From: an uncultured Alphaproteobacteria bacterium
GTDB taxonomy: Bacteria > Pseudomonadota > Alphaproteobacteria > Dongiales > Dongiaceae
Direction of reading: 5' to 3'
DNA length: 24,000 nt
Assembly (NCBI GenBank): GCA_963757155.1
Contig: CAVWQS010000026.1
Coordinates: forward strand, 23,422 to 47,421
The translations under genes and the position numbers were made by a program. This document shows, one piece after another, positions 1,704-16,729 of this stretch. Every line of letters begins with the position of its first letter. Positions within the stretch are counted from its first letter, which is position 1. Under the pieces are notes generated by a model, which did not search any database, was not told the origin of the DNA, and worked only from the letters and a program-made list of their open reading frames with translations.

Positions 1704-2744
1704 TCAGGCCGCGGCGGGCTTGGCCTCGCCGGCGAGAGGATAGTGGCAGGCGACCTGGCGGCCATCGGGCAGCGGACGCAGGATCGGCCGCTCCGCCCGG
1801 CAACGGTCGGTGGCATAGCGGCAGCGCGGGTTGAAGCGGCAGCCTGGCGGCGGGTTCATCGGGCTCGGCACATCGCCGGTGAGCACGATGCGCTCGCGCT
1901 TCACCGGCCGGTCGAGCTCGGGCACCGGCACGGCGGAGATCAGGGCCTCGGTATAGGGATGAGCCGGGTGGCCATAGACCAGATCCGTCGGCCCCGTCTC
2001 GACGATGGCGCCCAGATACATGACCGCGATGCGGCTGGAGACCTGGCGCACCACGCTCAGGTCATGGGCGATGAAGATATAGGTCAGCGCCAGGCGCTCC
2101 TGCAGATCGGCCAGGAGATTGACGATCTGGGCCTGGATCGAGACATCGAGAGCCGAGACCGGCTCGTCGGCGACGATCAGCTTCGGCTCCAGCGCCAAGG
2201 CCCGGGCGACGCCGATGCGCTGGCGCTGGCCGCCGGAAAACTCATGGGGAAAGCGGTTCAGATGGTCGGGATGGAGGCCCACCAGCCCCATCAACTCCTT
2301 GAGGCGGCGGTCGATCTCCGCCCGGCCGAGGCGGCCATGGATGCGCATCGGCTCGGCGACCAGATCGCCGATCCGCCGGCGCGGGTTGAGGGAGGCATAG
2401 GGATCCTGGAACACCATCTGCATCTGGCGCCGGTGGGGCCGGAGCTGGCGGGCGCCGAGATGAGAGATGTCGACGCCATCCAGCAGGATCTGGCCGTCGG
2501 TGATCTCGTAGAGGCGCATGAGGCAGCGCCCGAGGGTGGATTTGCCGCAGCCGGATTCGCCGACCAGGCCCAGGGTCTCGCCGGGCCAGACCTCCAGCGA
2601 AACGCCGTCCACGGCATAGACGGTCTTCTGCTGCCCCGGGATGACGCTGCGACCGACCCGGAAATGCTTCTTCACATCGATCGCCTTCAGCAGCGGACGC
2701 GTCGGCAGCTCGGCGGGCGGATCATTGGCGGCGCGCTGGCTCAT
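1704..2744 (-). CDS. Peptide/nickel ABC transporter ATP-binding protein (DppF/OppF-like)
   Basis: 346-aa ORF. Walker [10 protein letters not shown], signature LSGGQRQR, Walker [13 protein letters not shown], and the C-terminal oligopeptide-transporter extension (PxHPYTxALxxA..., CxFxxRC). Its start overlaps the upstream stop by 4 nt (ATGA at 2741..2744). Confidence 0.9.
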
Positions 2745-3787
2745 GAGGCCTGCCGCAGGCTGCGCGCGGCATGCTGACGCGCGCGCTCTTCCATGGAGAG
2801 ATGGCAGGCGGCCTCATGGCCGCCCTCGCCCTCCAGCGGCGGCTGCTCGCTGCATTTGACGAAGCGGAAGCGGCAGCGCGGCCCGAAGGCGCAGCCCTGG
2901 GGCAGGTTCGACAGCGACGGCGGGCTGCCCGGGATGGAGGGCAGGCGCCGGGGCCGCGGCCCATCCAGCGGCGGGATCGAATCATGCAGCCCCCAGCTAT
3001 AGGGATGCCAGGGCTGGGTGAAGATGTCGCGGGTCGTGCCCCGCTCCACGATGCGGCCGGCATACATGACCATGACCCGGTCGGCGATCTCGGCGACAAC
3101 GCCGAGATCATGGGTGATCAGCACGATGGAGGAACCGAAGTCGCGGCGGAGCTTCTTCAACAGCTCCAGGATCTGAGCCTGCACCGTCACATCGAGGGCC
3201 GTCGTCGGCTCGTCGGCGATGAGCAGCGAGGGATTGCAGGAGAGCGCCATGGCGATGAAGCCGCGCTGGCGCATACCGCCCGAGAGCTCATGAGGGTAGC
3301 GGTCCACCGTCACCGCGGGATTGGGAATCCCGACCTCGCCCAGAAGCTCGATCGCGCGCTTGCGGGCCTGGCGGCGGGAGAGACTGGTATGGGCGCGGAT
3401 CTGCTCCTCGATCTGCCAGCCGATGGTATAGACCGGGGTCAGCGCGGTCATGGGATCCTGGAAGATCATGGCGATCTCGCTGCCGCGCACGGCGCGTAGC
3501 TGGCGCCGCGAGAGACCGACGAGCTCGCGCCCCTTGTAGAGGATCGAGCCGCCGATCACCGCATTGGGATCGTTGATCAGCCCCATCACGCTCATCAGCG
3601 AGACGGTCTTGCCCGAGCCCGATTCGCCCACCACGCCGACGATCTCATGGGTGTCGATGCTGAAGGAGATGCCGCCGACGGCATGCAGCAGCCCGTGCTC
3701 GGTGCGGAAGGAGACCGTGAGGTCCCGCACCTCGAGCAAAGGCTTCTGCCCGTCAGGCGAGGCGGACGCGGGGGTCGAGGGTGGCAT
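2741..3787 (-). CDS. Peptide/nickel ABC transporter ATP-binding protein (DppD/OppD-like)
   Basis: Walker A GESGSGKT, signature LSGGMRQR, Walker B LLIADEPTTALD, and a C-terminal CxFxPRC motif. The track ORF (2741..3904) has a low-complexity N-terminus that overlaps the permease gene. I place the start at the ATG at 3787 (MPPSTPASASPDGQKPLLEVRDLTVSF). The exact start is uncertain. Confidence 0.85.
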   Translation of the reverse strand: MPPSTPASASPDGQKPLLEVRDLTVSFRTEHGLLHAVGGISFSIDTHEIVGVVGESGSGKTVSLMSVMGLINDPNAVIGGSILYKGRELVGLSRRQLRAVRGSEIAMIFQDPMTALTPVYTIGWQIEEQIRAHTSLSRRQARKRAIELLGEVGIPNPAVTVDRYPHELSGGMRQRGFIAMALSCNPSLLIADEPTTALDVTVQAQILELLKKLRRDFGSSIVLITHDLGVVAEIADRVMVMYAGRIVERGTTRDIFTQPWHPYSWGLHDSIPPLDGPRPRRLPSIPGSPPSLSNLPQGCAFGPRCRFRFVKCSEQPPLEGEGGHEAACHLSMEERARQHAARSLRQAS

Positions 3788-4724
3788 AGAGGATATCCAC
3801 GAGAGCATTGGCCATGACGACGAAGAAGGAGGCATACATGACCGTGGCCATGATGACTGGCAGATCGAGATTCTGGAGCGCGTCATAGGTGAGCTTGCCC
3901 ACACCCTGAAGCGCGAAGACCACCTCGGTCAGCAGCGCGCTGCCGCCGACGAGGGCGCCGAAATCGAGACCGAACAGCGTGACGACGCTGATGAGCGACG
4001 TGCGGAGCGCATGGCGCAGCAGGATCCGGGGTTCGCTGAGCCCCTTGGAGCGGGCGGTGCGGATGAAATCCTCCTGCCCCGCCTCCACCAGATTGGCCCT
4101 GAGCACCCGACCGTAGAGCCCGATATAGAGCGTGGCCAAGGTCAGCCAGGGCAGCAGCAGGGTCTTGAACCAGAGCCAGGGATCATCCGTCAGCGCCGTA
4201 TAGCCCAGCGGCGGCACCCAGGAGAAAAGCCAGGTGTCGTGCAGGCGGTTCTGGGTGATCAGATTGACGATCTCGCCCAGCCAATAGACCGGCATGGAGA
4301 TGCCGATGAGGCCCAAGACCATCAAGGCGCGGTCCAGCAGGCTGCCTTTGGTCGCCGCGGCGATGACGCCGATGGCGACGCTGCCGACGATCCAGAAGAA
4401 GGCCGCGCCCATGACAAGGGAAAGCGTGATCGGTGCCGCCTCCATCACCTCCGGGATCACCTCCTGGCCGCGATTGACGAAGGAGGTGAGGTTCCTATCG
4501 ATGAAGAGACGCTTCATCATGAGGGCGTATTGAATCGGCAGCGGCTTATCGAGGCCGAAGCTGGCGCGCACGGCGGCCACCACCTCCGGCGAGGCGTTGC
4601 GCCCGGCGATGCGCGAGGCGGGATCGGAGCCCGGGGTGGCGAAGAAGATCAGGAACACCAGGATGCTGATGCCCAGCATGACGAAGATCATCTGGGCCAG
4701 GCGGCGGATGAGCACGCTCAGCAT
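3753..4724 (-). CDS. Peptide ABC transporter permease (DppB/OppB-like)
   Basis: 323-aa ORF. The N-terminus MLSVLIRRLAQMIFVMLGISILVFLIFF is typical of DppB/OppB. It is a multi-span hydrophobic protein whose C-terminus ends ...LDPRVRLA. Confidence 0.9.
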   Translation of the reverse strand: MLSVLIRRLAQMIFVMLGISILVFLIFFATPGSDPASRIAGRNASPEVVAAVRASFGLDKPLPIQYALMMKRLFIDRNLTSFVNRGQEVIPEVMEAAPITLSLVMGAAFFWIVGSVAIGVIAAATKGSLLDRALMVLGLIGISMPVYWLGEIVNLITQNRLHDTWLFSWVPPLGYTALTDDPWLWFKTLLLPWLTLATLYIGLYGRVLRANLVEAGQEDFIRTARSKGLSEPRILLRHALRTSLISVVTLFGLDFGALVGGSALLTEVVFALQGVGKLTYDALQNLDLPVIMATVMYASFFVVMANALVDILYATLDPRVRLA

Positions 4725-4727: not shown

Positions 4728-5771
4728 TCAGCGGAACCGCAGCTTGGCCCGGGGATCGAGCGCATCGCGCACCCCGTCGCCCAGGATGTTGAGGGCCAGC
4801 ACCGACAGCACGATGGCGATGCCGGGGGCGATCGCCACCATCGGACGGGTGTAGATCAGATCCTGCCCGTCCTGGATGATGGTGCCCCAGCTGGCATCGG
4901 GCGGCTGCACGCCGATGGAGAGGAAGGACAGCGCCGATTCCGTCAGCATGTTGATCGCCACCATCAGCGGCACGAAGACGATCAGGGTCGTCATCACATT
5001 GGGCAGGATGTCGCGGAACAGGATGCGGTGGGAGGGCACGCCGAGCCCGATGGCCGCGAGCACGAACTCGCTTTCCTTCAGCGCCAGGACCTGGCCGCGG
5101 ATCGGCCGCGCCACATAGGGAATGTAGACGATGCCGATGATGAAGATGGGCAGCCACAGGGTGCCCGCGGTGATGGAGATCGGTCCGATATCGAAGCCAT
5201 GGCTGATGAGCACGATCGAGAGCGAGATCGCCAGCAGATAGATCGGGAAGGCCCAGAGCACGTCGAGCAGGCGCGAGATAACCATGTCGATGGCGCCGCC
5301 GAAGAAGCCGGCGACCAGCCCGGTCAGCGCCGAGAGCACCAGGCACATGAGGGTCGAGGCGCCGGCGATCAGCAAGGAGTTTCGCCCGCCATAGAGCAGC
5401 CGCGCGGCGATGTCGCGGCCTTGCCCATCCGCCCCCAGGAAGTAATTGCCGATATCCCAGGTCGGGCCCAGGGGTACCGAGCCCAGCCCCAGCCCCTCCG
5501 TCGAGGGCTCGATCAAGGCGACGCTCTCGCCGTTGACGGTGATGGTGCCGTCGATGTTGGAGGTGAAGGGATCGGTATGGGCCACATATTTCGCATAGAG
5601 GGGGGCCGCGAGGCAGAGCAGCACGATCACCAGGAACAAGGCGAGCGCGCCCATGGCCGCCCTGTCGGCGACGAGCTTGCGCAGCGCCCGCGCCCAGGGA
5701 CCCAGGGCCGGCCGCTCGAGTGCGGCCGACCCCTGTCCCAACTCAGTCGTGATTGGCAGGCTGTCCGTCAT
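4728..5771 (-). CDS. Peptide ABC transporter permease (DppC/OppC-like)
   Basis: 347-aa ORF. It carries LGADGQGRDIAARLLYGGRNSL, ESALSFLSIGVQPP and a GDGVRDALDPR C-terminus, all characteristic of DppC/OppC. The gap to the next permease gene is 3 nt. Confidence 0.9.
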   Translation of the reverse strand: MTDSLPITTELGQGSAALERPALGPWARALRKLVADRAAMGALALFLVIVLLCLAAPLYAKYVAHTDPFTSNIDGTITVNGESVALIEPSTEGLGLGSVPLGPTWDIGNYFLGADGQGRDIAARLLYGGRNSLLIAGASTLMCLVLSALTGLVAGFFGGAIDMVISRLLDVLWAFPIYLLAISLSIVLISHGFDIGPISITAGTLWLPIFIIGIVYIPYVARPIRGQVLALKESEFVLAAIGLGVPSHRILFRDILPNVMTTLIVFVPLMVAINMLTESALSFLSIGVQPPDASWGTIIQDGQDLIYTRPMVAIAPGIAIVLSVLALNILGDGVRDALDPRAKLRFR

Positions 5772-5825: not shown

Positions 5826-7491
5826 CTACTTGATCCACGACGCCGTGTGCTGCCAGTAGTACTGGGCATTGAAGACATAGTTCTTCACGCGCTTCGACAG
5901 GAAGTCGATGTATTTCGGCGTGAACAGCACCGCGACCGGCGCCTGGTCGGCCATCATCCTGTCGATGACCGCCCATTCCTTGTTGGCCGCAGCCGGATCG
6001 GTCACGCTCAAGGCCAGGGCTGCATTCATCTTGTCCTGGATGGTCTTGTCGCAGAAGCCGGCGATGTTCGGGGAGTTGTCCGAGCCGGGATGGAAGGTCC
6101 CGCAGCCCAGCAGCACGTTCAGGAAGTCGGATGGCGCCGGATAGTCCTGGTACCATTGCGAGACGCTGATCTGGACCTTGTTGTTGGTGTTCTGGATGTA
6201 GGTGAACTGGATGTTCTGCGAGAGCGCCTTGACGCTGGCGTCGTAGCCGATCGACTTGAGCACGCTCTGCAGATAGGTGCCGATGGAGCGATCGACCGTC
6301 AGATCCTGGACGATGATCGTCACCTTCTGCCCCGCGGTGCCGGATTCCTTCACCAGCTCCCTGCGCCTTGGCCAGATCCGGCGCACGTCCATTTGGTGCC
6401 GGGATTCTTGGTATAGGGGCAATAGGGCTCATAGCCCGGGGAAGCCGGGCGGCAGGACCTGGCAGGCGGGCTGCGCAAGCACCTTGCCGCCGAAGAGCTT
6501 CACCGTCGAATTGCGGTCAATGGCGAAGTTCACGGCCTGGCGGGCCTTCAGATTGTTGAAGGGCGGGATGTTGGTGTTCATCGGCGCATACCACATGGCC
6601 GTCAGGGTGTTGATATGCACCTGATCTTTGAACTTGGTGCCGATCTCGGCCAGACGATCCGGCGGCGGCTGGTCGAGGGTCCAATCCGCCTGGCCGTTCT
6701 CGATGGCGGTGATCTGCGGCTTCCTGGGTCAGGCCGAAATCATAATGGACCTCGTCGGGATAGCCGTCGGGCTGGGCGTCCTTGCTCCATTCCTTGAAAT
6801 AGGGATTGCGGACGACCTTGAGCTGCTTGTTGGGATCATAGGCGGCGAACATATAGGCGCCGGTGCCCATGATCGGCTCGCTGCCCATGTCCTTGGGCGG
6901 CGTATCGGCCGGAAGGATCACGCCATGGGGCACGGCGAGCTTGTCGAAGAACTCCGCGTCCGGCGCCACCAGATTGATGGTGACGGTATTGGCTGCCTCG
7001 TCGGCCACCACGCCGCCGTCCAAGGTGCAGGTCGCCGGGGTCTTCAGGCAGACATCGGCGCCGACGATGCCGTTGTAGAAGGAACCGGCCGTGGGCGTCG
7101 ATACCTTGAAGATGCGCTGGAAGGAGGCGACGACGTCCTTGACGGTCAGGTCCTGTCCGTTGGCGAATTTGATGCCCTTGCGGATCTTGAAGACATAGGT
7201 CTTGCCGCCGTTCTGGGGCTCGGGCATCGCCTCGGCCAGGTCGGGCACGATGGTGAAGCCCTCGCTGCCGGCGGCATGCTTGAAGGTGACGAGGCCGTCA
7301 TAGACGTATTGGTAGACGGTCCAGTATTGCAGCGTGTAGTTGATCTTCGGATCGAGGCTGCCACCCGCCGATTGCGAGAGAAGGCGCAGCGTCCCGCCGC
7401 GATGAGCATCATCGGCGGCCGCGGGCTGCAAGCTCGCGGCCATCAGCCCTGCGGCCGCCGCGGCTCCCATCAGCCATGTTGTTCGAGTCAT
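5826..7491 (-). pseudogene. Family-5 peptide/nickel ABC substrate-binding protein (DppA/OppA-like) with its reading frame disrupted at four places
   Basis: The ORF track splits it into 6517..7491, 6429..6620 and 5826..6422. The family-like sequence runs from MTRTTWLMGAAAAAGLMAASLQPAAA...HYDFGLTQEA in the first frame. After skipping one base near 6717 it continues as QITAIENGQADWTLDQPPPDRLAEIGTKFKDQVHINTLTAMWYAPMNTNIPPFNNLKARQAVNFAIDR...VLPPGFPG. Skipping a base near 6437 gives GYEPYCPYTKNPGTKWT. Skipping a base near 6385 gives APDLAKAQ. Skipping a base near 6360 gives ELVKESGTAGQKVTIIVQD... through to the stop at 5826. Read literally, an in-frame TGA occurs at 6429..6431. A good RBS (AAGGAAGG) lies before the ATG at 7491. 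Confidence 0.65.
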
Positions 7492-7545: not shown

Positions 7546-8505
7546 TTAGTCCCCTCGTCCCTCTTGCGCGGCGAGAAACTCGTCGACGAGCTTCAGGCAG
7601 CGGTCGCTCTCCTCAAGATGCGGCGAATGGCTCGATTCCTCGAAGATCGCCCAGCGGACATCGGGGATTCGATCGGCATAGGGCTGCACCGTCGCCGGCG
7701 TCGCCTCGTCATGGCGCCCGGAGATCAGCAAGGTGGGCGCCTCGATCAGATGCAGCCGGTCGATGATGCTCCAGTTCTTCAGGCTGCCCAGGACGTGGAA
7801 TTCGCTGGGCCCGTTCATGGTGTGATAGACGGTCGGGTCTTCCTGCATGAAGCGGAAGCTGCGGTTCATGCAATCCGGCCAGGGATCCAGGCGGCAGAGA
7901 TGGCGGTCGTAGAAGACCCGCACCGCCGCCGTATATTCGGGCGAATCCGTCGTGCCCGCGGCCTCATGCTTCAGAAGGGTCTGCTGCACGCCGGGCGGCA
8001 AGGCCTCGCGCAGCCGATCCGCCTCCTGGACCCAGAGGGTCATGGAGGCCGGCGAATCCGCGATCACCAGAGAGCGCAGCCCCGCCGGGCGAAGCACGCC
8101 ATGCTCGGCACCCAGCATGCCGCCCCAGGATTGGCCGAGCAGGTGGTAGTCCTTCTCGATCCCGAGATGGCGGAGGAGATTGTCGAGCTCCGCCAGGAAC
8201 AGCTCGACGGTCCAGAATCCGGGCTCCTTGTCGCGGAGATGGGTGGACCGGCCGGCGCCGAGCTGATCGTAGAAGACGACGGCGCGGCCCGATTTGGCCA
8301 AGCGGTCATAGGGCTCGAGATAGTCATGGGTCCCGCCGGGGCCGCCATGCAGGGTCACCAGCGGCGGCTTGCCGCCCTCAAGATCGCCCACCACCCGGTA
8401 CCAGGTGCGGTAGCCCCGGAAATCGGCATATCCGTCACGGCGGCTTGCCGCTCCCGGATCCGACGCGACGGTCTTGCTGCCCATGGGATCCGCGTCACCG
8501 CTCAT
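7546..8505 (-). CDS. pip: Proline iminopeptidase / prolyl aminopeptidase (alpha/beta hydrolase, S33 family), paralog 1
   Basis: 319-aa [13 protein letters not shown] oxyanion region, nucleophile elbow [15 protein letters not shown] (Asp) and [10 protein letters not shown] (His). The start overlaps the upstream pip stop (ATGA at 8502..8505). An alternative in-frame ATG lies at 8484. Confidence 0.85.
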
Positions 8506-9407
8506 TTGTCATGGCTCGCGAGAAACTCGCCGACGACCTTGAGACAATTTTCCGTCTCCTCGACATGGGGCATATGGCTGGAATTCTCGAAGATGGTCCA
8601 GCGCACATCGGGAATGCGGTCCGCATAGGGCTGCACCGTCGCCTTGGTGGCCTCGTCGTAGCGGCCGGAGATCAGCAGGGTCGGCGCCTGGATGCGGTCG
8701 AGCCGGTCGATGATGCTCCAGGGCTTGAGGGTGCCGACGACGTGGAATTCGCTGGGGCCGTTCATGGTGTGATAGACGGTCGGATCCGCCTCGATGGCGG
8801 CGAAGGTGCGCTCGACCTCCGGCGGCCAGGGGACACGGCAGACATGCCGGTCATAGAAGAAGCGAACGGCCTTGGCATACTCGGGCGAGCTGGTGGTGCC
8901 TGCCGTCTCATGGGCCAGCAGGACCGCCTGCACTTCCGGCGGCAGGGCCGCGCGAAGCTCATTGGCAGCCTGGAGCCAGAGCTCCATGGAGGCGGGCGAA
9001 TCGGCGATGACGAGGGCCTTCAGCCCCTTGGGCCGGCGCACCGCATGCTCGGCCGCCAGCATGCCGCCCCAGGACTGGCCGAGAAGATGATAGGCCGAGG
9101 CGATGCCGAGATGGGCCAGGAGATTGTCGAGTTCCTCGAGGAAGAGCGCGGGGGTCCAGAATTCGGCCCCCTTCTCCCTCAGATGGGTCGAGCGGCCGTT
9201 GCCGAGCTGGTCGTAATGCACCACCGCCCGGCCGGCCGAGGCCAGGCCTTTGAAGGAATTGACATAATCATGGGTGCAGCCGGGCCCGCCATGGAGAATG
9301 ACGACGGGGGCAATGGCGCTGCGGAGATCGCCGGTGACGCGATACCAGGTGCGGTAGTCGCGGAAGCTCGCATAGCCTTCGTCAATCATGGCGTTCGAGG
9401 CGCCCAT
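8502..9407 (-). CDS. pip: Proline iminopeptidase / prolyl aminopeptidase (S33), paralog 2
   Basis: 301-aa ORF, collinear with paralog 1 and roughly two-thirds identical by eye. [25 protein letters not shown] and [10 protein letters not shown] are all present. Confidence 0.85.
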
Positions 9408-9574
9408 TGTCTTTCCGAATGCCTTCCCCGGGGTCGACGCACAAGCCGTTGTTACGACATTTTGACGGCTAGGCTAGTGACCGTATGCACGGATGTAAAG
9501 TGACGCCGCTGCACTGCACAAAGCTGTGACAAGACGGCGGTGCGGAAGGTAGACCCGGGCACCCGGCCCCCGCT

Positions 9575-9594
9575 ACCTATCAAAAATGAGAGGT
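9575..9594. promoter_or_regulatory. lux-box-like 20-bp dyad ACCTATCAAAAATGAGAGGT in the pip/luxR divergent intergenic region
   Basis: 7 of 10 positions are symmetric (ACCT.TCA....TGA.AGGT). The outer ACCT/AGGT arms and the 20-bp length match the canonical lux-box layout (V. fischeri ACCTGTAGGATCGTACAGGT, from memory). The centre lies about 52 nt upstream of the luxR-family GTG and about 177 nt upstream of the pip ATG at 9407. Confidence 0.35.
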
Positions 9595-9636
9595 TGGTAA
9601 CTTGACCGGGCCGGCCGAATCGCTAGCGTCAGGGGC

Positions 9637-10407
9637 GTGATCCTCGATCTGGCCGCCTTTGCCCAGGATTTGGCCCGGGCCCGCAGCATCCCCGAACGGG
9701 TCGATCTGGCAGCCGCCCGGCTGCTGGAGCTTGGCTTCAATTCCATGTGCTACGACTACACCCCCGTGCCGCTCTCCCATGAGGGGATCGTCATCGCCCC
9801 CAATCTGGTCGAGCCGCGCAATGTGCCCGAGAGCTTCACCCGGCTCTGGCTCGAGAGCGGCTATGCCGCCATCGATCCGGTTCAGGCGCTCGCGGTCCGC
9901 GCCAGCCTGCCCTTCGTCTGGTCCGTGGCGGAGGGCAGCGGCTCGGCCCTGCGGGAGGTGCTGGCGCCGACCCACGCGCCGGTCGTCCATTACCTGCGCG
10001 ACACGAGGATGAGCTGCGGCGTCACGGTGCCGATGCATCTGCCGGGCGGCGAGTTCGCCACCTTCACGGGCGTGCGCATCGATCCCGAGCCGGATTTCGA
10101 GGAAGACGCCGGCCGAAGGATCGGCGATGTCGCCCTTCTGGGCGCCCTGCTCCACGCCAGCATCTATCCGACCCTCGACCGCAAGATGCGGACCTGCCGC
10201 CATGTGCGGCTCACGCGGCGCGAGCGGGAGTGCCTGCAATGGTGCGCCCGCGGGCTGACGACCAAGGAGATCGCCGGCCAGCTATCCCGCTCGGCGGCGA
10301 CGGTGACGCTGCATCTGGAGAACGCCGCCCGCAAGCTCGGCGCCCGCAACCGCGCCCAGGCGGTCGCGCGCGCCGCGCATTATCACGTGCTGGAAGGCGC
10401 CCATTAG
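9637..10407 (+). CDS. LuxR-family transcriptional regulator with an N-terminal autoinducer-binding-type domain and a C-terminal GerE/LuxR HTH ('LuxR solo')
   Basis: 256-aa ORF with a GTG start preceded by AGGGG and an in-frame TAG at 9625. The C-terminal HTH reads LTRRERECLQWCARGLTTKEIAGQLSRSAATVTLHLENAARKLGARNRAQAVARA. The N-terminal segment NVPESFTRLWLESGYAAIDPVQALAVRASLPFVW aligns without gaps to LasR [34 protein letters not shown]. No LuxI/HdtS/LuxM-like synthase is present in the window. Confidence 0.85.
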   Translation: MILDLAAFAQDLARARSIPERVDLAAARLLELGFNSMCYDYTPVPLSHEGIVIAPNLVEPRNVPESFTRLWLESGYAAIDPVQALAVRASLPFVWSVAEGSGSALREVLAPTHAPVVHYLRDTRMSCGVTVPMHLPGGEFATFTGVRIDPEPDFEEDAGRRIGDVALLGALLHASIYPTLDRKMRTCRHVRLTRRERECLQWCARGLTTKEIAGQLSRSAATVTLHLENAARKLGARNRAQAVARAAHYHVLEGAH

Positions 10408-10491: not shown

Positions 10492-10986
10492 TTAGCCGAC
10501 GCCGGCCACCCATCCCTGCGGGCTCTTGCAGAGCTTGACCGTGTCTTCGGTCATCTTGCCGTTCTGGACCGCCGTCTCGCGGACGAAGCGGCAGGTCTTG
10601 CCCGTGCTGTCGGTGAAGAGCGCGCCGACCGCCGTCGCCGTGCCCGAGGCCTCGGTCTGGAAGATGGCATTGGTCTTGCGCCAGGTGATGGTGGTGCCGG
10701 TGCTGGCTTCGGCGGCGCGTGCCGCGGCCTGGCCGGCGGCGGTATCGGCATCGCCGTCCAGCGCATTGGACATGCGGTTGCCGATGAGCCCGCCGGCGGC
10801 CATGCCGATGAGGACGCCGGCCGGGCTGCCGGAGATGGCATAGCCGATGAGCCCGCCGCCCGCCGCCCCCAGGCCGGTGCCGGCGGTCTCGCCCGAGCTC
10901 ATCTCGCCGACGCCGCCGGAGGAATTGCAGGCCGAGAGAGCCAGGCAAGCCGACAGCGCCAGAACGCCAAGCGTTTTACACGTCAT
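10492..10986 (-). CDS. Outer-membrane lipoprotein with a glycine-zipper region (17-kDa surface antigen-like)
   Basis: I trimmed the track ORF (10492..11085) to the ATG at 10986. That gives MTCKTLGVLALSACLALSAC with a lipobox (LSAC) and GGGGGA as RBS. The Gly-zipper stretch is GLGAAGGGLIGYAISGSPAGVLIGMAAGGLIG. The C-terminal beta-rich domain contains two Cys. Confidence 0.7.
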   Translation of the reverse strand: MTCKTLGVLALSACLALSACNSSGGVGEMSSGETAGTGLGAAGGGLIGYAISGSPAGVLIGMAAGGLIGNRMSNALDGDADTAAGQAAARAAEASTGTTITWRKTNAIFQTEASGTATAVGALFTDSTGKTCRFVRETAVQNGKMTEDTVKLCKSPQGWVAGVG

Positions 10987-11175
10987 GGTGGATTCCCCCG
11001 ATTCGCGAACCAGCCTAGGCTCGACGGTTTTCCGGAGAATTTCAAGTATCTTCCCCCCTCCCACTCTGTCCCCGACGGCCATCATTTCTTCATCGAACCG
11101 TAAAGGGAGCGGAACGCCTTGCTGTCATCCTCCAAGGGATGCGGCTGCGGCCGCGCCTTTCCCGCGGAGGATCCG

Positions 11176-12426
11176 ATGAGGCGAGAGCTGGCCCTGATTG
11201 CCGCCGTGCTGGCGGTCGCGACCCCCATGGCAGTTCGTCATGCCGCTGCCATCGAGCCAATGGGCGCCGGCGAGTTTAACGTCAAGGCCAAGGTCGACCT
11301 GAAATCCCTCGATCGCGCCGATTTCATCGCGCTGCTCGACTCCGCCGCTCAGAGCGAAGGTGGCAGCGAGCTGGTCTTCTATGATTTCGCCGATACCCTC
11401 TGCGACCTGCTGGCCAAGGAATCCCAGAGCTTCACCGCCAAGAGCGGGATCAAGGTCAAGCATGTCTGCGTCGATGGCGACACGGCCTCCCAGCAGCTCA
11501 TCGCGGCGCAAGCTTCCGGCAGCAGGCCGCCGGCGGATGTCTTCTTCGGGCCGAACAACGACATGCGGGCGCTGACCAAGGCGGGGGTCGTGGCGAACCT
11601 GCCGCTGGTTGCCGTGGTGCCGGAGGCGAAGGATCTGGACAAGGAGGCGGCGCTGCGCTCCCGCGGCTTCGAGCATGGCGGAACGGTCCTGCCCTTCCAT
11701 CGCAACCAGACGGTCATCGCCTATGACTCTGCCAAGATCGCAGAGCCGCCCTCGGGGCTCGTGGAGATCTTCGACTATGCGAAGGCCCATGACTTGAAGG
11801 TCGCGGTCACCAATCCCACCAAGGGCGGCAGCGGCTCCGGCTTCGTGGAGAGCGCGCTGCTCGCCCTCGCCCCGGAATGCCAGAAGGATCTCTACGACTT
11901 CACCCTGTCGGAGGCGCAGGCCAAGGCCGTGGCGGAGCGCTGCATGCCGAAAATCGTCGGCTTCTTCAAGGAGCGCCAGGGGCTGATCGATTTTACCAAT
12001 GGCAATGAGAACTCGATCCAGGAGATCGCCAATGGCGTGGTGGGCTTCGCCACCGTCTGGGAGGACGATCTCTACACCCTGGCGGCCAAGGGCATGGTGC
12101 CGAAGACGGTGAAGCCGATGCTGCTGGCGAGCGGCGAGGTCGGCGATGGCGACGGCCTCTTCGTGCTGTCCTCCACCGACAAGGTCGAGGCCGCGCTTCT
12201 CTATGTGAATTTCCTGATGGGCGATCAGGTCCAGATCGACAAGCTGGAACAGACCGGCAGCCGCACGGCCCGCCTCGACCTGCAGACCGCCGGCAAGATT
12301 CCCGACCGCCTCGCCGTATATCTCGTGCCCGACCAGCTTTATCACGAGCGCACCCGGCCCCGGATCAACGGCCTCATCAGCGACGCGGCGGCGGACATCT
12401 TCGTGGCCCAGGTGCTCGCTCAATAG
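11176..12426 (+). CDS. ABC transporter periplasmic substrate-binding protein (family 1, PotD/Fbp-like)
   Basis: I trimmed the track ORF to the ATG at 11176, which is preceded by GGAGGA. The signal peptide is MRRELALIAAVLAVATPMAVRHAAA. It is a ~390-aa mature soluble protein and the first gene of an ABC operon. Confidence 0.75.
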   Translation: MRRELALIAAVLAVATPMAVRHAAAIEPMGAGEFNVKAKVDLKSLDRADFIALLDSAAQSEGGSELVFYDFADTLCDLLAKESQSFTAKSGIKVKHVCVDGDTASQQLIAAQASGSRPPADVFFGPNNDMRALTKAGVVANLPLVAVVPEAKDLDKEAALRSRGFEHGGTVLPFHRNQTVIAYDSAKIAEPPSGLVEIFDYAKAHDLKVAVTNPTKGGSGSGFVESALLALAPECQKDLYDFTLSEAQAKAVAERCMPKIVGFFKERQGLIDFTNGNENSIQEIANGVVGFATVWEDDLYTLAAKGMVPKTVKPMLLASGEVGDGDGLFVLSSTDKVEAALLYVNFLMGDQVQIDKLEQTGSRTARLDLQTAGKIPDRLAVYLVPDQLYHERTRPRINGLISDAAADIFVAQVLAQ

Positions 12427-12448
12427 GCCGAAAACGGAGGCCCGCACC

Positions 12449-13498
12449 TTGCTCTCCCTGCGGGGGGTCGCCAAGAGCTTCGGCGAGACGGCGGCGGTCG
12501 AGGATGTCGATCTGGAAGTGGCGGCCGGCGAGTTCCTGACCCTGCTCGGTCCCTCGGGCTGCGGCAAATCGACCCTTCTCAGGATCGTCGCCGGGCTGGT
12601 CGAGGCCGACCGGGGCCAGGTGCGGCTCGACGGCGAGGAGATCCAGGAACTGCCGGCCCATCGCCGGCGCACGGCGATGGTCTTCCAGAGTTATGCCTTG
12701 TTTCCGCATATGACGGTCGAGCGCAATACCGCCTTCGGGCTGGTGATGCGCGGCGTCGAGCGATCCCGGATCGAGCGCCGGGTGGCCGAGACGCTCGCCC
12801 TGGTGGAGCTTGACGGCCTCGGCCGGCGCTATCCGCGCGAGCTCTCCGGCGGCCAGCAGCAGCGCGTCGCCCTCGCTCGCGCGCTGGTGACCGAGCCCCG
12901 CGTGCTGCTGCTCGACGAGCCGCTCTCCAATCTCGACGCTAAGCTGCGCGACCGGCTGCGCATCGAGCTCCGCGCCCTGCAGCGGCGCCTCGGCCTCACC
13001 ACCGTTTTCGTCACTCATGACCAGGCGGAAGCCATGGCGCTCTCCGACCGCATCGCCGTCATGTCCAAGGGGCGGCTGATCGAGACGGGCACGCCGGAGG
13101 AGATCTACAGCCGGCCGCAGAGCCGCTTTGCCGCCGAATTCGTCGGAATCGCCAATCTGCTCTCCGGGACGCTGAGCGACGACGGCCGGCATCGGTTCGT
13201 CGACACGGCGCTGGGTCGCTTCGCGGCATTGGGCGATGCCGGGCGCGCGGGGCCGGGTGCTTCGATCTGCCTGCGGCCGGAGGATATCGGCCTGTCCCTC
13301 GAGGGTCCCGGACCCTACGGGAAGCTGACCCATGTCACCTATGCCGGCCCGTTCCAGGATTGCATCGTCGAGATGGAGCAAGGCGGGCTTCGGCTGCGCG
13401 CGCATGTCCCGGTGCGGCCCTGGCATATCGGAGAAAGGGTGGCCGTGCGGCTGCCGGAGCGGGCCGCGGTGCTTGCCGGCGATTCGGATCGCGCGTGA
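12449..13498 (+). CDS. ABC transporter ATP-binding protein (PotA/FbpC-like, with a C-terminal TOBE-type domain)
   Basis: 349-aa ORF with a TTG start preceded by GGAGG. Walker A GPSGCGKST, Q-loop VFQSYALFPHM, signature LSGGQQQR and Walker B LLLDEPLSNLD. Confidence 0.9.
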   Translation: MLSLRGVAKSFGETAAVEDVDLEVAAGEFLTLLGPSGCGKSTLLRIVAGLVEADRGQVRLDGEEIQELPAHRRRTAMVFQSYALFPHMTVERNTAFGLVMRGVERSRIERRVAETLALVELDGLGRRYPRELSGGQQQRVALARALVTEPRVLLLDEPLSNLDAKLRDRLRIELRALQRRLGLTTVFVTHDQAEAMALSDRIAVMSKGRLIETGTPEEIYSRPQSRFAAEFVGIANLLSGTLSDDGRHRFVDTALGRFAALGDAGRAGPGASICLRPEDIGLSLEGPGPYGKLTHVTYAGPFQDCIVEMEQGGLRLRAHVPVRPWHIGERVAVRLPERAAVLAGDSDRA

Positions 13499-14415
13499 GC
13501 ACGCTCATCGCCGCGCCCACCCGGCTTGCGGCTCCCACAGGGGAGATCCGGCGAGGCGTCAGCCGCCGCCGGCGCCGGCGCGTCGAGACCCTCCTGCTGC
13601 TTCTGCCGGGGGCGGGATTCATTGCGGTCGCCATGGTCGCCCCATTGCTGCAGCTCGCCCTTGGCAGCGTCGGACTGACGGGGCTGGGCAGCGAGCGGCG
13701 CTTCAGCCTCACCGCCTTCCAGGCGGTGCTCGGCAATCCGATGATGCGCGACGCCCTCTGGTTCAGCCTGCGCATCGCCGCGATCACCACGGTGCTGGGC
13801 GTCGTCTCGGCGCTCGGCCTCGTGGCCTTGCTGACCCTGCGCTTCCCCGGCCGCCGTCTCGTCATGCTGCTCTCCAAGCTGCCGCTGGTGGTGCCCAGCC
13901 TGATCGCCGCCTTCCTGGTCCTCACCATGATCGGCCCCGGCGGCATGGGCGCGCGGCTGGCGGCCCAGCTCGGCCTCGGCTGGCCTCAGCTCGTCCATGA
14001 TCGGGCGGGCATCGGGATCACCCTGGTGCTGCTCTGGCATCAAATTCCCGTGACTTTGCTGATCCTCCTGGCGGTGGTGGGCTCCATTCCCCTCGACCTC
14101 ATCGATGCGGCGCGCAATCTGGGGGCGACGGCCCCCCGCGTCTTCCGCCATGTCATTCTGCCTTTGGCGCTGCCTGGCATCTCCGCCGCCGCCCTTCTCG
14201 TCTTCATCGATTGCTTCGGCGCCTATGCGGTGCCCTCGCTGCTCGGCCCCGCCTATCCTCAGGCCCTGCCGGTGATGATGACGAGCGAGTTCCTGGAGCG
14301 GGCGCATTGGCAGATCGCCTCGGCCATCGGGGTGGTGATGACCCTCACCACCATCGCCGTGATGGTCCTCTATCACCGGCTGATCGCCCGTGCCGATCGG
14401 ACGCCTTCCCGATGA
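13495..14415 (+). CDS. ABC transporter permease (PotB-like)
   Basis: I trimmed the track ORF 13360..14415 to the GTG at 13495, which overlaps the ATPase stop (GTGA). It is multi-span and hydrophobic. The EAA-type loop reads DLIDAARNLGATAPRVFRHVILPLALPG. Confidence 0.8.
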   Translation: MSTLIAAPTRLAAPTGEIRRGVSRRRRRRVETLLLLLPGAGFIAVAMVAPLLQLALGSVGLTGLGSERRFSLTAFQAVLGNPMMRDALWFSLRIAAITTVLGVVSALGLVALLTLRFPGRRLVMLLSKLPLVVPSLIAAFLVLTMIGPGGMGARLAAQLGLGWPQLVHDRAGIGITLVLLWHQIPVTLLILLAVVGSIPLDLIDAARNLGATAPRVFRHVILPLALPGISAAALLVFIDCFGAYAVPSLLGPAYPQALPVMMTSEFLERAHWQIASAIGVVMTLTTIAVMVLYHRLIARADRTPSR

Positions 14416-15257
14416 CGCCGATCTGGGGCCTGCGCCATCCTTTGCTGCGCTGGTGCCTGGGCTTCACCGTGCTGAGCGTCGCCGGCCTCGTCTTCCTGCT
14501 TCCCATCGCCACGGCGGTGCTCTGGTCGCTGGTCGATCCGGAGACCGGCTGGTTCCCGCCTCATGTCTTTCCGGCGAGCCTGTCGCTCGCCAATTGGCGC
14601 GACATGCTGGCGGTGCCGGAGCTGGGCCAGGCGCTGGGCCGCAGCCTGCTCATCGCGGCTATCGTTACTGTGCTTTGCACCGGCCTCGGCTTGCCGACGG
14701 GCTATGCCCTGGGCCGTCGGCGCTTTCGCGGCCGGCGCGCCATCGAGGTCCTGGTGCTGACGCCGCTGATGATGCCGGGGATCGTGCTCGCCATCGGCCT
14801 TGGCGGGCTGTTCATGCGTCTCGGCCTGGGCCAGACCCTCGCCGGGGTCGTGCTGGTGCAGACCGTGGTGGTGCTCCCGCTCACCATCCGCATCATCGCC
14901 GCCACGGCGCAATCAATTCCGGCCGATGTCATCGATGCCGCCACCAATCTCGGCGCCGGACCCGGGGCGCTGGCGCAGCACATCCTGGCGCCTCTGCTGC
15001 TGCCGGGCCTGCTGGCGGGGGCGCTGCTCAGCTTCATCGCCAGCCTGGAGGAATTCCTGCTCTCCTTCGTGGTCGGCATGCCGACGGTCCAGACCCTGCC
15101 CATGCTGCTCTGGGCCTATCTCGGCGGGCGCTCGGCGATCCTCAGCTATGCCGCGGTCGTCACCGTGGCACTGCTGATCCCGACCCTGCTCGTCCTCGTC
15201 GTCGTCGAGCGGTTTCTAAAGCAGGAATATCTCGCGGCCGGCTTCGGCAAGGCCTAA
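14412..15257 (+). CDS. ABC transporter permease (PotC-like)
   Basis: I trimmed the track ORF 14211..15257 to the ATG at 14412, which overlaps the upstream stop (ATGA). The EAA-type loop reads DVIDAATNLGAGPGALAQHILAPLLLPG. Confidence 0.8.
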   Translation: MTPIWGLRHPLLRWCLGFTVLSVAGLVFLLPIATAVLWSLVDPETGWFPPHVFPASLSLANWRDMLAVPELGQALGRSLLIAAIVTVLCTGLGLPTGYALGRRRFRGRRAIEVLVLTPLMMPGIVLAIGLGGLFMRLGLGQTLAGVVLVQTVVVLPLTIRIIAATAQSIPADVIDAATNLGAGPGALAQHILAPLLLPGLLAGALLSFIASLEEFLLSFVVGMPTVQTLPMLLWAYLGGRSAILSYAAVVTVALLIPTLLVLVVVERFLKQEYLAAGFGKA

Positions 15258-15286
15258 CCCCGGAAAGAAGAAAGATGAGGAACAAC

Positions 15287-16135: not shown

Positions 16136-16729
16136 CTACCGCGCGAAGGTGGCGGCGATCTTGTCGGCGAGCTGGCCCAGGGCCTGGCTCATGGCGGCGA
16201 CGAGATCGGCATCGGCATCCGAGGCCGGCTTCACCGTCAGGCGGTTCGTATCCTCGGTCACGCCATTTGCCGTGGTGAGCGTCCAGCGCGCCGCGAGGAC
16301 GATGGTGCTGTCGGGATCGGGATCGAAGCGCGAGAAATCGATCTGCAGCGTGGCGGCGGCGGCGGTCGCCGTCGGGCTGTCCGCCTTGAAGACCTGCGCC
16401 TTCGGCAGGCGCTGGGCGAGATCGCCCACCAGGATGCGGGTGACCATGTCGCCGAAGGGCTCGCCCCAGCGGTCGAACTCGGCGACGTCGAGCTGATAGG
16501 CCCCGCCATGGCGCACGATCTGCGGGCGATCGAGATATTTCGGGATCGCCGCACTGGCAACCGCAAGGGTCGCGGGGCCGCCCTCGAGCTCCGTGCCGGG
16601 CTGGATCGCCAGCGAGAAGATCTGGGGCGTGGGGCTCGTGCTGCAGCCTGCGAGACCCAGCACGCCGAGCCCCGCCGTCAGCAGGCCGAGCGTCAGAAAC
16701 CCGCGCCGCGTGGTGTCTGGCGCCGTCAT
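16136..16729 (-). CDS. pqiC: PqiC/YmbA-family lipoprotein (ABC-type transport auxiliary lipoprotein, DUF330-like)
   Basis: 197-aa ORF immediately downstream of pqiB with an ATGA overlap at 16726..16729. Lipobox LAGC. The call rests on size and position matching PqiC; the family was assigned by context and general resemblance, not by search. Confidence 0.7.
   Translation of the reverse strand: MTAPDTTRRGFLTLGLLTAGLGVLGLAGCSTSPTPQIFSLAIQPGTELEGGPATLAVASAAIPKYLDRPQIVRHGGAYQLDVAEFDRWGEPFGDMVTRILVGDLAQRLPKAQVFKADSPTATAAAATLQIDFSRFDPDPDSTIVLAARWTLTTANGVTEDTNRLTVKPASDADADLVAAMSQALGQLADKIAATFAR

What the first reader, a model, noticed from the sequence alone, without database searches (positions are those of the whole stretch)
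7546..10407. LuxR 'solo' with non-AHL-type pocket residues sitting divergently next to proline iminopeptidase genes (PAB LuxR-solo signature)
Seen in sequence: a full-length LuxR-family regulator (autoinducer-binding-type domain plus HTH) lies at 9637..10407. No AHL synthase is present anywhere in the 24 kb. The regulator is transcribed divergently from pip genes. A gap-free by-eye alignment to LasR puts F at the W60(LasR)/W57(TraR) position and W at the Y64/Y61 position, while D-P and the downstream W are conserved (FTRLWLESGYAAIDP...PFVW). Established knowledge: the plant-associated-bacteria LuxR solos (XccR, OryR, PsoR, XagR, NesR) do not respond to AHLs and sense plant-derived compounds. 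They typically carry W57M and Y61W substitutions, and they are characteristically adjacent to pip, which they regulate through a lux-box-like site. Inference: this regulator belongs to or is related to that subfamily. It has a variant first substitution (F instead of M), so its ligand specificity may differ from the characterised members.
Basis: partly seen in the sequence, partly recalled or inferred. Interest (0 to 1): 0.7.

Follow-up and report, generated by a model that had tools for sequence, protein, structure and literature searches.

The report
Non-AHL LuxR solo beside pip genes
This is a quorum-sensing-type regulator that has lost the residues needed to bind the usual bacterial signal. 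It sits next to two proline-iminopeptidase genes and a peptide importer, so it is an ordinary new member of the known "plant-signal" LuxR-solo (OryR/XccR/PipR) family, with one unusual pocket residue.

Summary
Window 9637-10407 (+) encodes a 256-aa LuxR-type protein with an autoinducer-binding domain and a GerE HTH domain. It is divergent from two tandem TIGR01250 proline-iminopeptidase genes (8502-9407 and 7546-8505, minus strand). These head an Opp-type ABC importer operon. No AHL synthase lies in the 24 kb.

Three independent alignments put F67 at TraR W57, W71 at Y61 and V63 at Y53. D70, P71, W85, G113, E178, L182 and G188 are kept.

The protein carries the other pocket residues published as typical of the plant-associated (PAB) solos: V72, Q73, V101, L105, M110, T129. 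It is 44% identical, without gaps, to XccR, against 21-25% to TraR and LasR.

A position matrix built only from pip-promoter boxes of other clades, including the published luxXc box, gives one outstanding hit in the window. It is ACCTATCAAAAATGAGAGGT at 9575-9594, in the luxR/pip intergenic region.

F at position 57 is not unique. It marks about a fifth of the nearest relatives, all from uncultured bacteria. It usually travels with an aliphatic residue at position 62, where M/W-type proteins mostly have Cys.

The host is a Dongiaceae-like soil alphaproteobacterium.

Verdict: new member of a known kind; ligand unknown.

The parts
9637..10407 (+). LuxR-type solo regulator, 256 aa, GTG start. N-terminal autoinducer-binding-type domain with pocket residues V63/F67/W71/L72/D80/P81/V82/Q83/W95/V116/L120/M125/G128/T144. 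C-terminal GerE HTH domain.
   Evidence: Pfam. Residue mapping. 44% gapless identity to XccR. AF2 model with pLDDT 93.3, whose nearest PDB folds are QscR, RhlR, TraR and SdiA.
9575..9594 (.). 20-bp imperfect dyad ACCTATCAAAAATGAGAGGT, the candidate binding site (lux-box/pip-box type) of the solo. Its centre is 52.5 bp upstream of the luxR GTG and 177.5 bp upstream of the pip2 ATG.
   Evidence: A PWM built from 13 boxes of other clades scores it 21.1 bits. The next best hit in the 24 kb scores 8.9. The maxima of 100 shuffles averaged 8.6, sd 3.0, highest 19.6. It is the top hit at the same position in all 8 query-clade loci. In L025 both half-sites changed together (ACCTAGGAAAAATCCCAGGT). It shares 13 of 20 bases with the published luxXc box.
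9601..9629 (+). Conserved CTTGAC (9601-9606) and TAGCGT (9624-9629), with a 16-nt spacer counted from TTGACC. Putative luxR promoter placing the transcription start close to the GTG. Inference only.
   Evidence: Read from the sequence. Both blocks are invariant in 9 related intergenic regions. The simple consensus scan did not call it.
9546..9551 (-). Minus-strand TAnnnT (TACCTT) whose T, A and final T are invariant in relatives. It could be the -10 of an activator-dependent pip-ward promoter, with the box centred near -45. Inference only.
   Evidence: Invariant columns A152, T156 and A157 in alignment A3. Sequence.
9471..9499 (-). Minus-strand TTTACA-N17-TAGCCT, a sigma-70-like element about 60 bp upstream of pip2. 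It would be a second, box-independent pip promoter. Inference only.
   Evidence: The blocks GGATGTAAAGTG and GGCTAGGCTAG are almost fully conserved in 9 related loci: 11 of 12 and 10 of 11 positions are invariant, and the proposed -35 hexamer is fully invariant. Not called by the consensus scan.
8502..9407 (-). pip2, a proline-iminopeptidase-family (S33) hydrolase of 301 aa and first gene of the divergent operon.
   Evidence: TIGR01250, 262.5 bits, above cut-off. PDB 7A6G, 5e-133. GQSWGG nucleophile motif kept, with invariant Asp and His residues near the C-terminus.
7546..8505 (-). pip1, a tandem paralogue of 319 aa, 69% identical to pip2. Its start overlaps the pip2 stop by 4 bases.
   Evidence: TIGR01250, 283.8 bits. 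Alignment. The tandem pair is conserved in L001-L003, L023, L025 and L042.
5826..7491 (-). SBP_bac_5 periplasmic binding protein of the ABC importer. As sequenced it is broken by four single-base insertions (about 6717, 6437, 6385-6387 and 6363-6364). It is intact (552-555 aa) in all five short-read relatives.
   Evidence: Pfam on the fragments. Indel mapping. Sister long-read-style contigs carry many different single-base insertions. The closest solved relative is 8UPI, an L-amino-acid-amide-binding SBP, at 7e-54.
4728..5771 (-). OppC-type permease
   Evidence: PF00528 and PF12911. 63-72% identical to permeases next to M-type solos.
3753..4724 (-). OppB-type permease
   Evidence: PF00528 and PF19300.
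2741..3904 (-). OppD-type ATPase. The listed ORF start overlaps the permease gene, so the true start is probably further downstream.
   Evidence: PF00005 and PF08352.
1704..2744 (-). OppF-type ATPase
   Evidence: PF00005 and PF08352.

Best explanation
The locus is a Pip-type signalling system of the OryR/XccR/PipR family. These are LuxR solos that do not use AHLs (class D, the 'PAB' solos).

Proposed working, by analogy with the PipR system of Pseudomonas sp. GM79:
1. A small exogenous, peptide-like, amino-acid-amide-like or ethanolamine-derived compound is imported by the Opp-type ABC transporter encoded in the divergent operon.
2. The compound binds the N-terminal domain of the solo. That domain lacks two of the polar contacts for a homoserine-lactone head group (Y53->V, W57->F) and carries the family's own pocket (W61, V72, Q73, V101, L105, M110, T129).
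3. The liganded dimer binds the dyad ACCTATCAAAAATGAGAGGT at 9575-9594 in the shared control region.
4. It activates the pip2-pip1-SBP-permease-ATPase operon and may also act on its own promoter, which abuts the box.
5. The two Pip hydrolases then act on the signal or on a related substrate, giving feedback.

Shown here: domain architecture, pocket residues, family membership by sequence, gene linkage across the family, and presence and conservation of the box.
Inferred: the ligand class, activation rather than repression, which promoter the box serves, and the feedback.
For: Architecture and key residues.

All six PAB-typical cluster-2 pocket residues tabulated by Covaceuszach et al. (PMC3821632) are present: V82, Q83, V116, L120, M125, T144.

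Similarity:
- 44% gapless identity to XccR, with a nearly identical recognition-helix region (RSAATVTLHLENAARKLGARNR against RSTATVNLHLNSAARKLGARNR).
- 45-48% identity to Kosakonia and Pseudomonas members, against 21-25% to TraR and LasR.

Gene linkage:
- pip lies within 1.5 kb in 52 of 54 family loci and in 0 of 11 other LuxR loci.
- An orthologous ABC transporter (SBP 60-68%, permeases 63-72% identical) lies next to M-type solos. This includes a Dongia sp. genome with the layout [ABC]<-|->luxR->pip.

The box:
- The box PWM was built without the query clade. It gives one outlier in the 24 kb, and that outlier lies in the intergenic region.
- Family loci typically carry one box upstream of luxR and one upstream of the downstream pip.
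- A dyad-preserving double change is seen in L025.

Literature model: in GM79 the ABC transporter is required for the PipR response and peptidase mutants over-respond (PMC4981722). PAB solos regulate the adjacent pip (PMC10134790).
Against: - Nothing here is experimental for this protein.
- The box lies 177.5 bp from the pip2 start codon and only 52.5 bp from the luxR start. In canonical loci the pip box is centred about 60-70 bp from the pip start (GM79 -71.5).
- A conserved sigma-70-like element sits between the box and pip2. pip could therefore be driven independently, and the box could mainly serve luxR.
- Position 57 is F, a state absent from the published set of 18 PAB solos (M 13, W 5).
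- The known ligands of the family disagree with each other: HEHEAA for PipR, glucose claimed for XccR, and no response found for PsrR. Two of the three residues reported for glucose binding in XccR (C21, Q60) are not kept here, where they are R21 and P60.
- The SBP gene is frameshifted as sequenced.
Confidence: 0.62

Rival explanations
1. The F57/L62 'roof' subtype is a separate specificity class. The receptor works as above but senses a different compound from the M57- and W57-type members, in free-living soil bacteria rather than plant associates.
For: - Published authors already treat M against W at position 57 as a probable specificity determinant. PipR is W/W and responds to HEHEAA; PsrR is M/W and does not.
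- F57 occurs in three clades, nearly always with an aliphatic residue at position 62, where M/W types mostly have Cys, Thr or Ser.
- Both residues lie on the same predicted helix, 66-73.
- A Dongia sp. genome carries an M57/C62 system with the canonical layout. The family Dongiaceae therefore holds both types.
Against: - All other pocket positions are the same as in M-type proteins.
- F/C combinations exist (L047, P0158), so the covariation is not strict and is confounded by phylogeny.
- No ligand data exist, and no pocket geometry could be examined.
Confidence: 0.25
2. The dyad serves mainly autoregulation of the regulator gene. The pip-ABC operon is driven from its own sigma-70-like promoter, so pip is merely linked to the regulator and not controlled by it.
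For: - The box ends 7 bp from a conserved CTTGAC/TAGCGT pair in front of luxR.
- A conserved TTTACA-N17-TAGCCT lies about 60 bp upstream of pip2, 120 bp away from the box.
- In Kosakonia no PsrR-dependent pip activity was detected.
Against: - In every characterised relative except Kosakonia PsrR, where no PsrR-dependent pip activity was seen, the adjacent pip is the regulated target.
- Boxes upstream of luxR sit at very different distances from the luxR start in different clades (-30 to -227). That variation is hard to reconcile with a box positioned relative to the luxR promoter alone.
- An invariant minus-strand TAnnnT lies at the spacing expected for a box-dependent pip-ward promoter.
Confidence: 0.15
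3. It is an AHL-eavesdropping solo, like SdiA or QscR, whose cognate signal comes from other bacteria.
For: - It has a full-length autoinducer-binding-type domain with D70, W85 and G113 kept.
- The nearest solved folds are AHL receptors.
- The best NCBIfam hit is SdiA, but at 50 bits against a cut-off of 350.
Against: - Y53, W57 and Y61 are all replaced. From the TraR and LasR structures, as I recall them, Y53 and W57 give two of the hydrogen bonds to the lactone/amide head group.
- Relatives with the same W61/Q73 pocket (OryR, XccR, PipR) are reported not to respond to AHLs.
- It is only 21-25% identical to AHL receptors.
Confidence: 0.05
4. The system is decaying in this organism: the binding-protein gene is a pseudogene, so the regulator is signal-blind.
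For: Four frameshifting single-base insertions fall within 355 bp of the SBP gene. They are unique to the window.
Against: - Contigs encoding the identical regulator, from three ENA assemblies, are 92-98% identical to the window. They carry dozens of different single-base insertions, which break other genes at other places, including pip genes (fragmented calls; the insertions were mapped only in the SBP gene). This pattern fits error-prone assembly.
- All five short-read relatives have an intact ORF.
- The rest of the operon is intact in the window.
Confidence: 0.07

Closest known systems
XccR/pip of Xanthomonas campestris pv. campestris, with OryR, XagR and XocR of other Xanthomonas
   Same: - LuxR solo with W at position 61 and the D-P-V-Q motif, next to a pip gene.
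- 20-bp dyad of the same type: the luxXc box ACCTGGCAAATTTGCCAGTT shares 13 of 20 bases with the window box.
- 44% gapless protein identity and a nearly identical recognition helix.
   Different: - XccR has M at position 57 and C at position 62; this protein has F and L.
- In Xanthomonas the pip lies downstream of the regulator, with its own box. No ABC peptide transporter is linked there, according to Schaefer et al..
- Here two pips head a divergent ABC operon and there is one box.
- Two of the three residues reported to bind glucose in XccR are not kept here: C21 and Q60 are replaced, Y41 is kept.
PipR / AapA-F / PipA of Pseudomonas sp. GM79
   Same: - The same three-part module: a non-AHL LuxR solo, S33-type peptidases, and an Opp-type ABC importer in an operon on the other side of the regulator.
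- This is the only system of the family with a working model: import, sensing, pip activation, and signal removal by the peptidases.
   Different: - PipR is W57/W61.
- GM79 has one peptidase (aapA) heading the ABC operon and pipA downstream of pipR. Here both peptidases are pipA-like: they are 64-70% identical to the pips downstream of M-type solos, against about 37% for the aapA-position genes. Both head the ABC operon.
- Whether HEHEAA is sensed here is unknown.
PsrR of Kosakonia; NesR of Sinorhizobium meliloti; PsoR and PsaR2 of Pseudomonas
   Same: - The same family signature and pip adjacency.
- The query is 48% identical to a Kosakonia member, P0081, and 43% to a Rhizobium giardinii member, P0086.
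   Different: - These are M/W or W/W at positions 57/61, with the canonical luxR->pip order.
- All come from cultured plant-associated bacteria.
Canonical AHL receptors TraR, LasR, RhlR, QscR and SdiA
   Same: - The same two-domain fold.
- D70, P71, W85, G113, E178, L182 and G188 are kept.
   Different: - Only 21-25% identity.
- Y53, W57 and Y61 are replaced, as are V73->Q, F101->V and A105->L.
- No luxI partner is present, and the target genes differ.

Membership tests
PAB / OryR-XccR-PipR LuxR solos (class D, subgroup 0 of Bez et al. 2023) | Two-domain LuxR architecture: autoinducer-binding-type domain plus GerE HTH domain | tested here: met
   PF03472 at 1.1e-19 and PF00196 at 6.2e-19. AF2 model with pLDDT 93.3; nearest folds QscR, RhlR, TraR and SdiA.
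PAB / OryR-XccR-PipR LuxR solos | Y61 (TraR numbering) replaced by W | tested here: met
   W71 aligns with TraR Y61 and LasR Y64. W is present in 118 of 118 nearest homologues and in 18 of 18 published PAB solos.
PAB / OryR-XccR-PipR LuxR solos | W57 replaced by M (13 of 18 published members) or kept as W (5 of 18) | tested here: not met
   The residue is F67. The position is already variable within the family, and F occurs in 23 of 118 nearest cluster representatives. I therefore read this as a third state of a variable position and not as exclusion from the family.
PAB / OryR-XccR-PipR LuxR solos | Family-typical pocket residues V72, Q73, V101, L105, M110, T/S129, with D70, P71, W85 and G113 kept | tested here: met
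   V82, Q83, V116, L120, M125, T144, D80, P81, W95 and G128, against Table 1 of PMC3821632.
PAB / OryR-XccR-PipR LuxR solos | A pip (proline iminopeptidase) gene next to the regulator | tested here: met
   Two TIGR01250 genes, divergent, starting 229 bp from the regulator. The linkage holds in 52 of 54 family loci.
PAB / OryR-XccR-PipR LuxR solos | A lux-box-like inverted repeat in the control region of pip | tested here: met
   9575-9594 scores 21.1 bits with a PWM from other clades and is the only outlier in the 24 kb. Its distance from pip2 (177.5 bp) is longer than in canonical loci, so its target promoter is not settled.
PAB / OryR-XccR-PipR LuxR solos | Clusters with characterised members and not with AHL receptors | tested here: met
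   44% identity to XccR, 45-48% to Kosakonia and Pseudomonas members, and 21-25% to TraR and LasR. The neighbour-joining tree agrees but has no support values. In the 50%-cluster library only 25 proteins reach E<=1e-30, and most of the full-length ones carry W61 and Q73.
PAB / OryR-XccR-PipR LuxR solos | No cognate luxI (the 'solo' condition) | tested here: inconclusive
   None in the 24 kb window or in the 20-kb stretches of sister contigs. The whole genome is not available.
PAB / OryR-XccR-PipR LuxR solos | Responds to plant-derived or other non-AHL compounds and not to AHLs | not testable with these tools
   This needs reporter or binding assays.
PAB / OryR-XccR-PipR LuxR solos | Host is a plant-associated bacterium | tested here: inconclusive
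   The closest loci are metagenome contigs and MAGs labelled Dongiaceae. No habitat information was retrievable. Family members also occur on contigs from gut, food and bioreactor metagenomes.
Canonical AHL-binding LuxR receptors | Invariant W57 and Y61, usually with Y53, in the acyl-HSL pocket | tested here: not met
   F67, W71 and V63.

The most novel reading that the evidence does not exclude
The F57 / aliphatic-62 receptors form a third, undescribed specificity class of Pip-type LuxR solos, alongside the M57 and W57 classes. They would be used by free-living soil Alphaproteobacteria (Dongiaceae and unnamed relatives) to sense a compound other than HEHEAA or glucose. The signal might be an amino-acid-amide-like molecule taken up by the linked SBP_bac_5 importer and cleaved by the duplicated Pip hydrolases. 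If so, the 'plant-associated bacteria' circuit is not restricted to plant associates.
Probability: 0.25. Interest if true: 0.55.

Novelty: new member of a known kind. Interest (0 to 1): 0.33.

Why it matters
The ligands of this widespread family are still largely unknown. One member senses HEHEAA, one is claimed to sense glucose, and another answered neither compound it was tested with. Position 57 has been singled out in the literature as a likely specificity determinant.

A natural third state (F, usually with L/M/I at position 62) in otherwise identical pockets gives a ready-made comparison set for ligand hunting and for residue-swap experiments.

The locus also shows the module (solo, Pip hydrolases, Opp-type importer, 20-bp dyad) in a soil lineage not known as plant-associated. 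That bears on the claim that these solos occur only in plant-associated bacteria.

Beyond this the locus is a routine member of a described family.

Tried and rejected
- Exact-seed inverted-repeat search of the intergenic region found nothing. The dyad appeared only with a mismatch-tolerant palindrome scan and comparison with other loci.
- The simple sigma-70 scan found no promoter. The promoter elements I name are read by eye from conserved blocks and are unproven.
- An Rfam scan of 9300-9750 found nothing meaningful. The one hit was a CRISPR-repeat model at E=0.95, so the long conserved pip2 leader is not a known RNA element.
- A real pseudogene reading of the broken SBP gene was considered and set aside in favour of assembly error.
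- PipR and OryR reference sequences could not be obtained. No supplement was held for the COPAL preprint, and no PAB solo structure is in the PDB. XccR was recovered indirectly from a contig holding the exact published EMSA probe, and was checked against the published C21, Y41 and Q60.
- The structure model confirms the fold and the helix carrying F67, W71 and L72. Pocket geometry could not be inspected, because coordinates are not returned.
- The AapF structure of the PipR system was not recognisable among the PDB hits of the binding protein. The top hit was instead the amino-acid-amide binder 8UPI.
- A link between the neighbouring GDPD/ABC operon and ethanolamine-type signals was considered. 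It rests on nothing but adjacency, so I do not claim it.


Full report
**What is in the sequence**

- ORF 9637-10407 (+) encodes 256 aa with PF03472 (autoinducer-binding domain, 1.1e-19) and PF00196 (GerE HTH, 6.2e-19).
- Two genes run divergently from it. pip2 is 8502-9407 (-), 301 aa. pip1 is 7546-8505 (-), 319 aa. Both score above the curated cut-off of TIGR01250, the proline-iminopeptidase family.
- The two pips are 69% identical to each other and overlap by four bases. Both keep the GQSWGG nucleophile motif.
- The nearest solved structure to pip2 is a proline iminopeptidase, 7A6G, at 5e-133.
- The same strand continues with an SBP_bac_5 binding protein, two Opp-type permeases, two Opp-type ATPases and a NUDIX gene.
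- Every codon-biased ORF of at least 90 aa in the 24 kb was scanned against Pfam. None is an autoinducer synthase.

**The residue claim**

- phmmer against PDB sequences aligns the motif NVPESFTRLWLESGYAAIDP...PFVW with LasR [20 protein letters not shown]...PIFW. This puts F67 on W60, W71 on Y64, D80-P81 on D73-P74 and W95 on W88. RhlR gives the same register.
- MAFFT with TraR, LasR and 118 homologues gives, in TraR numbering: Y53->V63, W57->F67, Y61->W71, with D70, P71, W85, G113, E178, L182 and G188 kept. LasR agrees with the alignment printed.
- A gapless BLASTP alignment with XccR gives the same positions.

**Which family**

The review by Bez et al. and the pocket survey by Covaceuszach et al. 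define the plant-associated-bacteria (PAB) solos by four things:
- W57M (or W kept) and Y61W;
- a conserved second shell of V72, Q73, V101, L105, M110 and T/S129;
- an adjacent pip gene;
- a lux-box-like site in the pip promoter.

The protein has all of the second-shell residues: V82, Q83, V116, L120, M125 and T144.

I recovered XccR itself from a metagenome contig, L081. That contig holds the exact 46-nt luxXc EMSA probe published for Xcc, and its ORF has the published C21, Y41 and Q60. The query is 44% identical to it over 253 residues with no gap, and the recognition-helix region is almost the same. Identity is 48% to a Kosakonia member, 45% to a Pseudomonas member, 21% to TraR and 25% to LasR.

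In a library clustered at 50% identity, only 25 proteins reach E<=1e-30. Most of the full-length ones carry W61 and Q73, after which the ordinary W57/Y61 LuxR proteins begin.

The AF2 model is confident (pLDDT 93.3). Its nearest solved folds are QscR, RhlR, TraR, SdiA and LasR, and no PAB solo has a solved structure.

**Gene linkage across the family**

- Of 54 loci whose regulator has W61 and Q73 and that have at least 1.3 kb on both sides, 52 have a pip homologue within 1.5 kb. None of 11 loci with other LuxR homologues does. Many loci are close relatives, so these are not independent counts.
- An orthologous ABC importer lies next to several M-type solos, with the SBP 60-68% and the permeases 63-72% identical.
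- One of these is a Dongia sp. genome with the layout [ATPase ATPase permease permease SBP]<-|->luxR->pip.
- In the clade of the window (74-96% identical regulators: L001-L003, L023-L025, L042, L094) no pip follows the regulator. Instead two pipA-like genes head the divergent ABC operon.
- Other F-type clades have luxR->pip->SBP->pip->permeases->ATPases on one strand.

**The DNA site**

- Palindrome scans of luxR-pip intergenic regions in other clades recover one recurring 20-bp dyad. Examples are AACTAGCATTTTTGCTAGTG, ATCTATCAAATTTGCTAGCT, AACTATCAGTTCCGATAGCT and the published luxXc box ACCTGGCAAATTTGCCAGTT.
- A symmetrised matrix was built from 13 such boxes, none from the query clade. It scores ACCTATCAAAAATGAGAGGT at 9575-9594 with 21.1 bits. 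The next hit in the 24 kb scores 8.9. The maxima of 100 shuffles averaged 8.6 (sd 3.0, highest 19.6).
- The same position is the top hit in all eight query-clade loci. In L025 both half-sites changed together, to ACCTAGGAAAAATCCCAGGT.
- Family loci usually carry two boxes, one upstream of luxR facing the divergent operon and one upstream of the downstream pip. The window clade has no downstream pip and keeps only the first.

Which promoter the box serves is not settled:
- It abuts a conserved CTTGAC...TAGCGT pair in front of luxR.
- An invariant minus-strand TAnnnT (9551-9546) would put it near -45 of a pip-ward start.
- A conserved TTTACA-N17-TAGCCT (9499-9471) offers a second, box-independent pip promoter.
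- Neither the consensus promoter scan nor Rfam calls anything in this region.

**How unusual is F57**

- The published set of 18 PAB solos has M in 13 and W in 5. W57F is recorded for other solo groups but not for the XccR/OryR group.
- Among the 118 nearest cluster representatives the position is M in 87, F in 23, W in 7 and L in 1.
- F occurs in the query clade, in a clade 54-56% identical to it, and in a clade that also has P71->L.
- In 50%-identity clusters F marks 3 of about 20.
- No F-type protein carries a name from a cultured organism. The query clade is labelled Dongiaceae in MAG records.
- F57 goes with L, M, I or V at position 62 in 23 of 23 representatives. M- and W-type proteins mostly have C, T or S there. 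Exceptions with F and C exist (L047, P0158).
- Both residues lie on predicted helix 66-73.
- Authors of the Kosakonia study already argue that M against W at position 57 probably changes specificity. PipR (W/W) responds to HEHEAA, and PsrR (M/W) does not.
- A different ligand for the F type is therefore plausible but untested.

**Mechanism**

The best-supported reading follows the PipR model: import of a small signal by the ABC transporter, binding to the solo, binding of the dyad, activation of the pip-ABC operon, and removal of the signal by the Pip hydrolases.

The loss of Y53 and W57 removes two polar contacts for a homoserine-lactone head group. This rests on my recollection of the TraR and LasR structures and was not tested here. 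Together with the reported AHL-blindness of relatives, it argues against an AHL ligand.

The nearest solved relative of the binding protein is MeAmi_SBP (8UPI, 7e-54), which binds L-amino-acid amides. HEHEAA is itself a substituted glycinamide. This is a lead and not evidence.

**The broken binding-protein gene**

- The window has four single-base insertions in this gene (near 6717, 6437, 6385-6387 and 6363-6364). They are absent from five relatives, all of which have intact 552-555-aa ORFs.
- The identical regulator protein occurs on contigs of three ENA assemblies that are 92-98% identical to the window. Their gene calls are fragmented throughout, including pip genes. In the SBP gene, where I mapped them, they carry many different single-base insertions.
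- I read the frameshifts as assembly error and not as gene decay.

**Verdict**

The locus is a new member of the known OryR/XccR/PipR family. It has an undescribed but recurrent residue state at a position already known to vary, a rearranged operon, and a host lineage not known as plant-associated. Interest is modest.

Noticed in passing
window 5826-7491 (-): The SBP_bac_5 gene is split into three ORFs by four single-base insertions unique to the window. Sister contigs encoding the identical regulator carry many other single-base insertions elsewhere, so this is probably assembly error and not a pseudogene.
   Followed up: yes
L081 3927-3946, L084 1466-1485, L090 778-797; L053 3785-3804 and similar loci: Besides the known box upstream of pip, family loci carry a second box upstream of the regulator gene. 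In Xanthomonas contigs it is CATTGGTAAAAATGCTAGGT, about 62 bp before xccR. In enterobacterial contigs it is AGTTAGCAAAAATACTAGTT, about 113 bp before the gene. I did not find this second site described in the papers I read.
   Followed up: partly
window 9454-9522: Three blocks are almost invariant in nine related loci: ACGACATTTTGACGGCTAGGCTAGTGAC, GGATGTAAAGTG and GCTGCAnTGCACAAA. They lie between the box and pip2. Part of this fits a minus-strand TTTACA-N17-TAGCCT promoter; the rest is unexplained. There is no Rfam match.
   Followed up: partly
window 11119-16057 (+): An operon of an SBP_bac_8 binding protein, a PotA/PhnT-like ATPase, two permeases and a glycerophosphodiester phosphodiesterase (15287-16057) lies just downstream of the regulator. 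At least its first gene is conserved beside the regulator in L001-L003. No link to the Pip system was shown.
   Followed up: partly
L001 (DATHQQ010000235.1): This contig is 95% identical in the regulator and shares the gene order of the Dongiaceae-type loci. It is nevertheless filed under a 'Verrucomicrobiia' MAG, which probably reflects a binning error.
   Followed up: no
L017-L020, L085, L093; proteins P0029, P0031, P0034, P0041, P0055, P0067, P0077, P0092: A clade of F57 solos also replaces the 'invariant' P71 by L (D-L-V-Q). It still has two hydrolase genes, an SBP_bac_5 gene and an Opp-type transporter downstream on the same strand, with a box between luxR and the first hydrolase.
   Followed up: partly
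L091 and L092: A divergent F57 variant with the signature MFWLDVAW lacks P71, V72 and Q73. It has near-perfect dyads AGCTATCGAAATCGATAGTT upstream, and no pip is visible on these short contigs.
   Followed up: no
L061, L063, L066, L072, L099, L101: Family members (M57/W61, most with an adjacent pip) occur on contigs labelled human-gut, food and bioreactor metagenomes. [quoted passage not shown]
   Followed up: no
window 10492-11085 (-): A glycine-zipper-type lipoprotein gene converges on the regulator gene and is conserved there in L001 and L002. It has weak YiaD-like and DUF456 matches only.
   Followed up: no
window 16136-19774 (-): An ordinary PqiA / MlaD-domain / ABC_trans_aux (PqiABC-like) operon. 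It is followed by ferric-reductase-like, LTXXQ, flavodoxin-like, LysR and cytochrome b561 genes. Nothing here is related to the finding.
   Followed up: no
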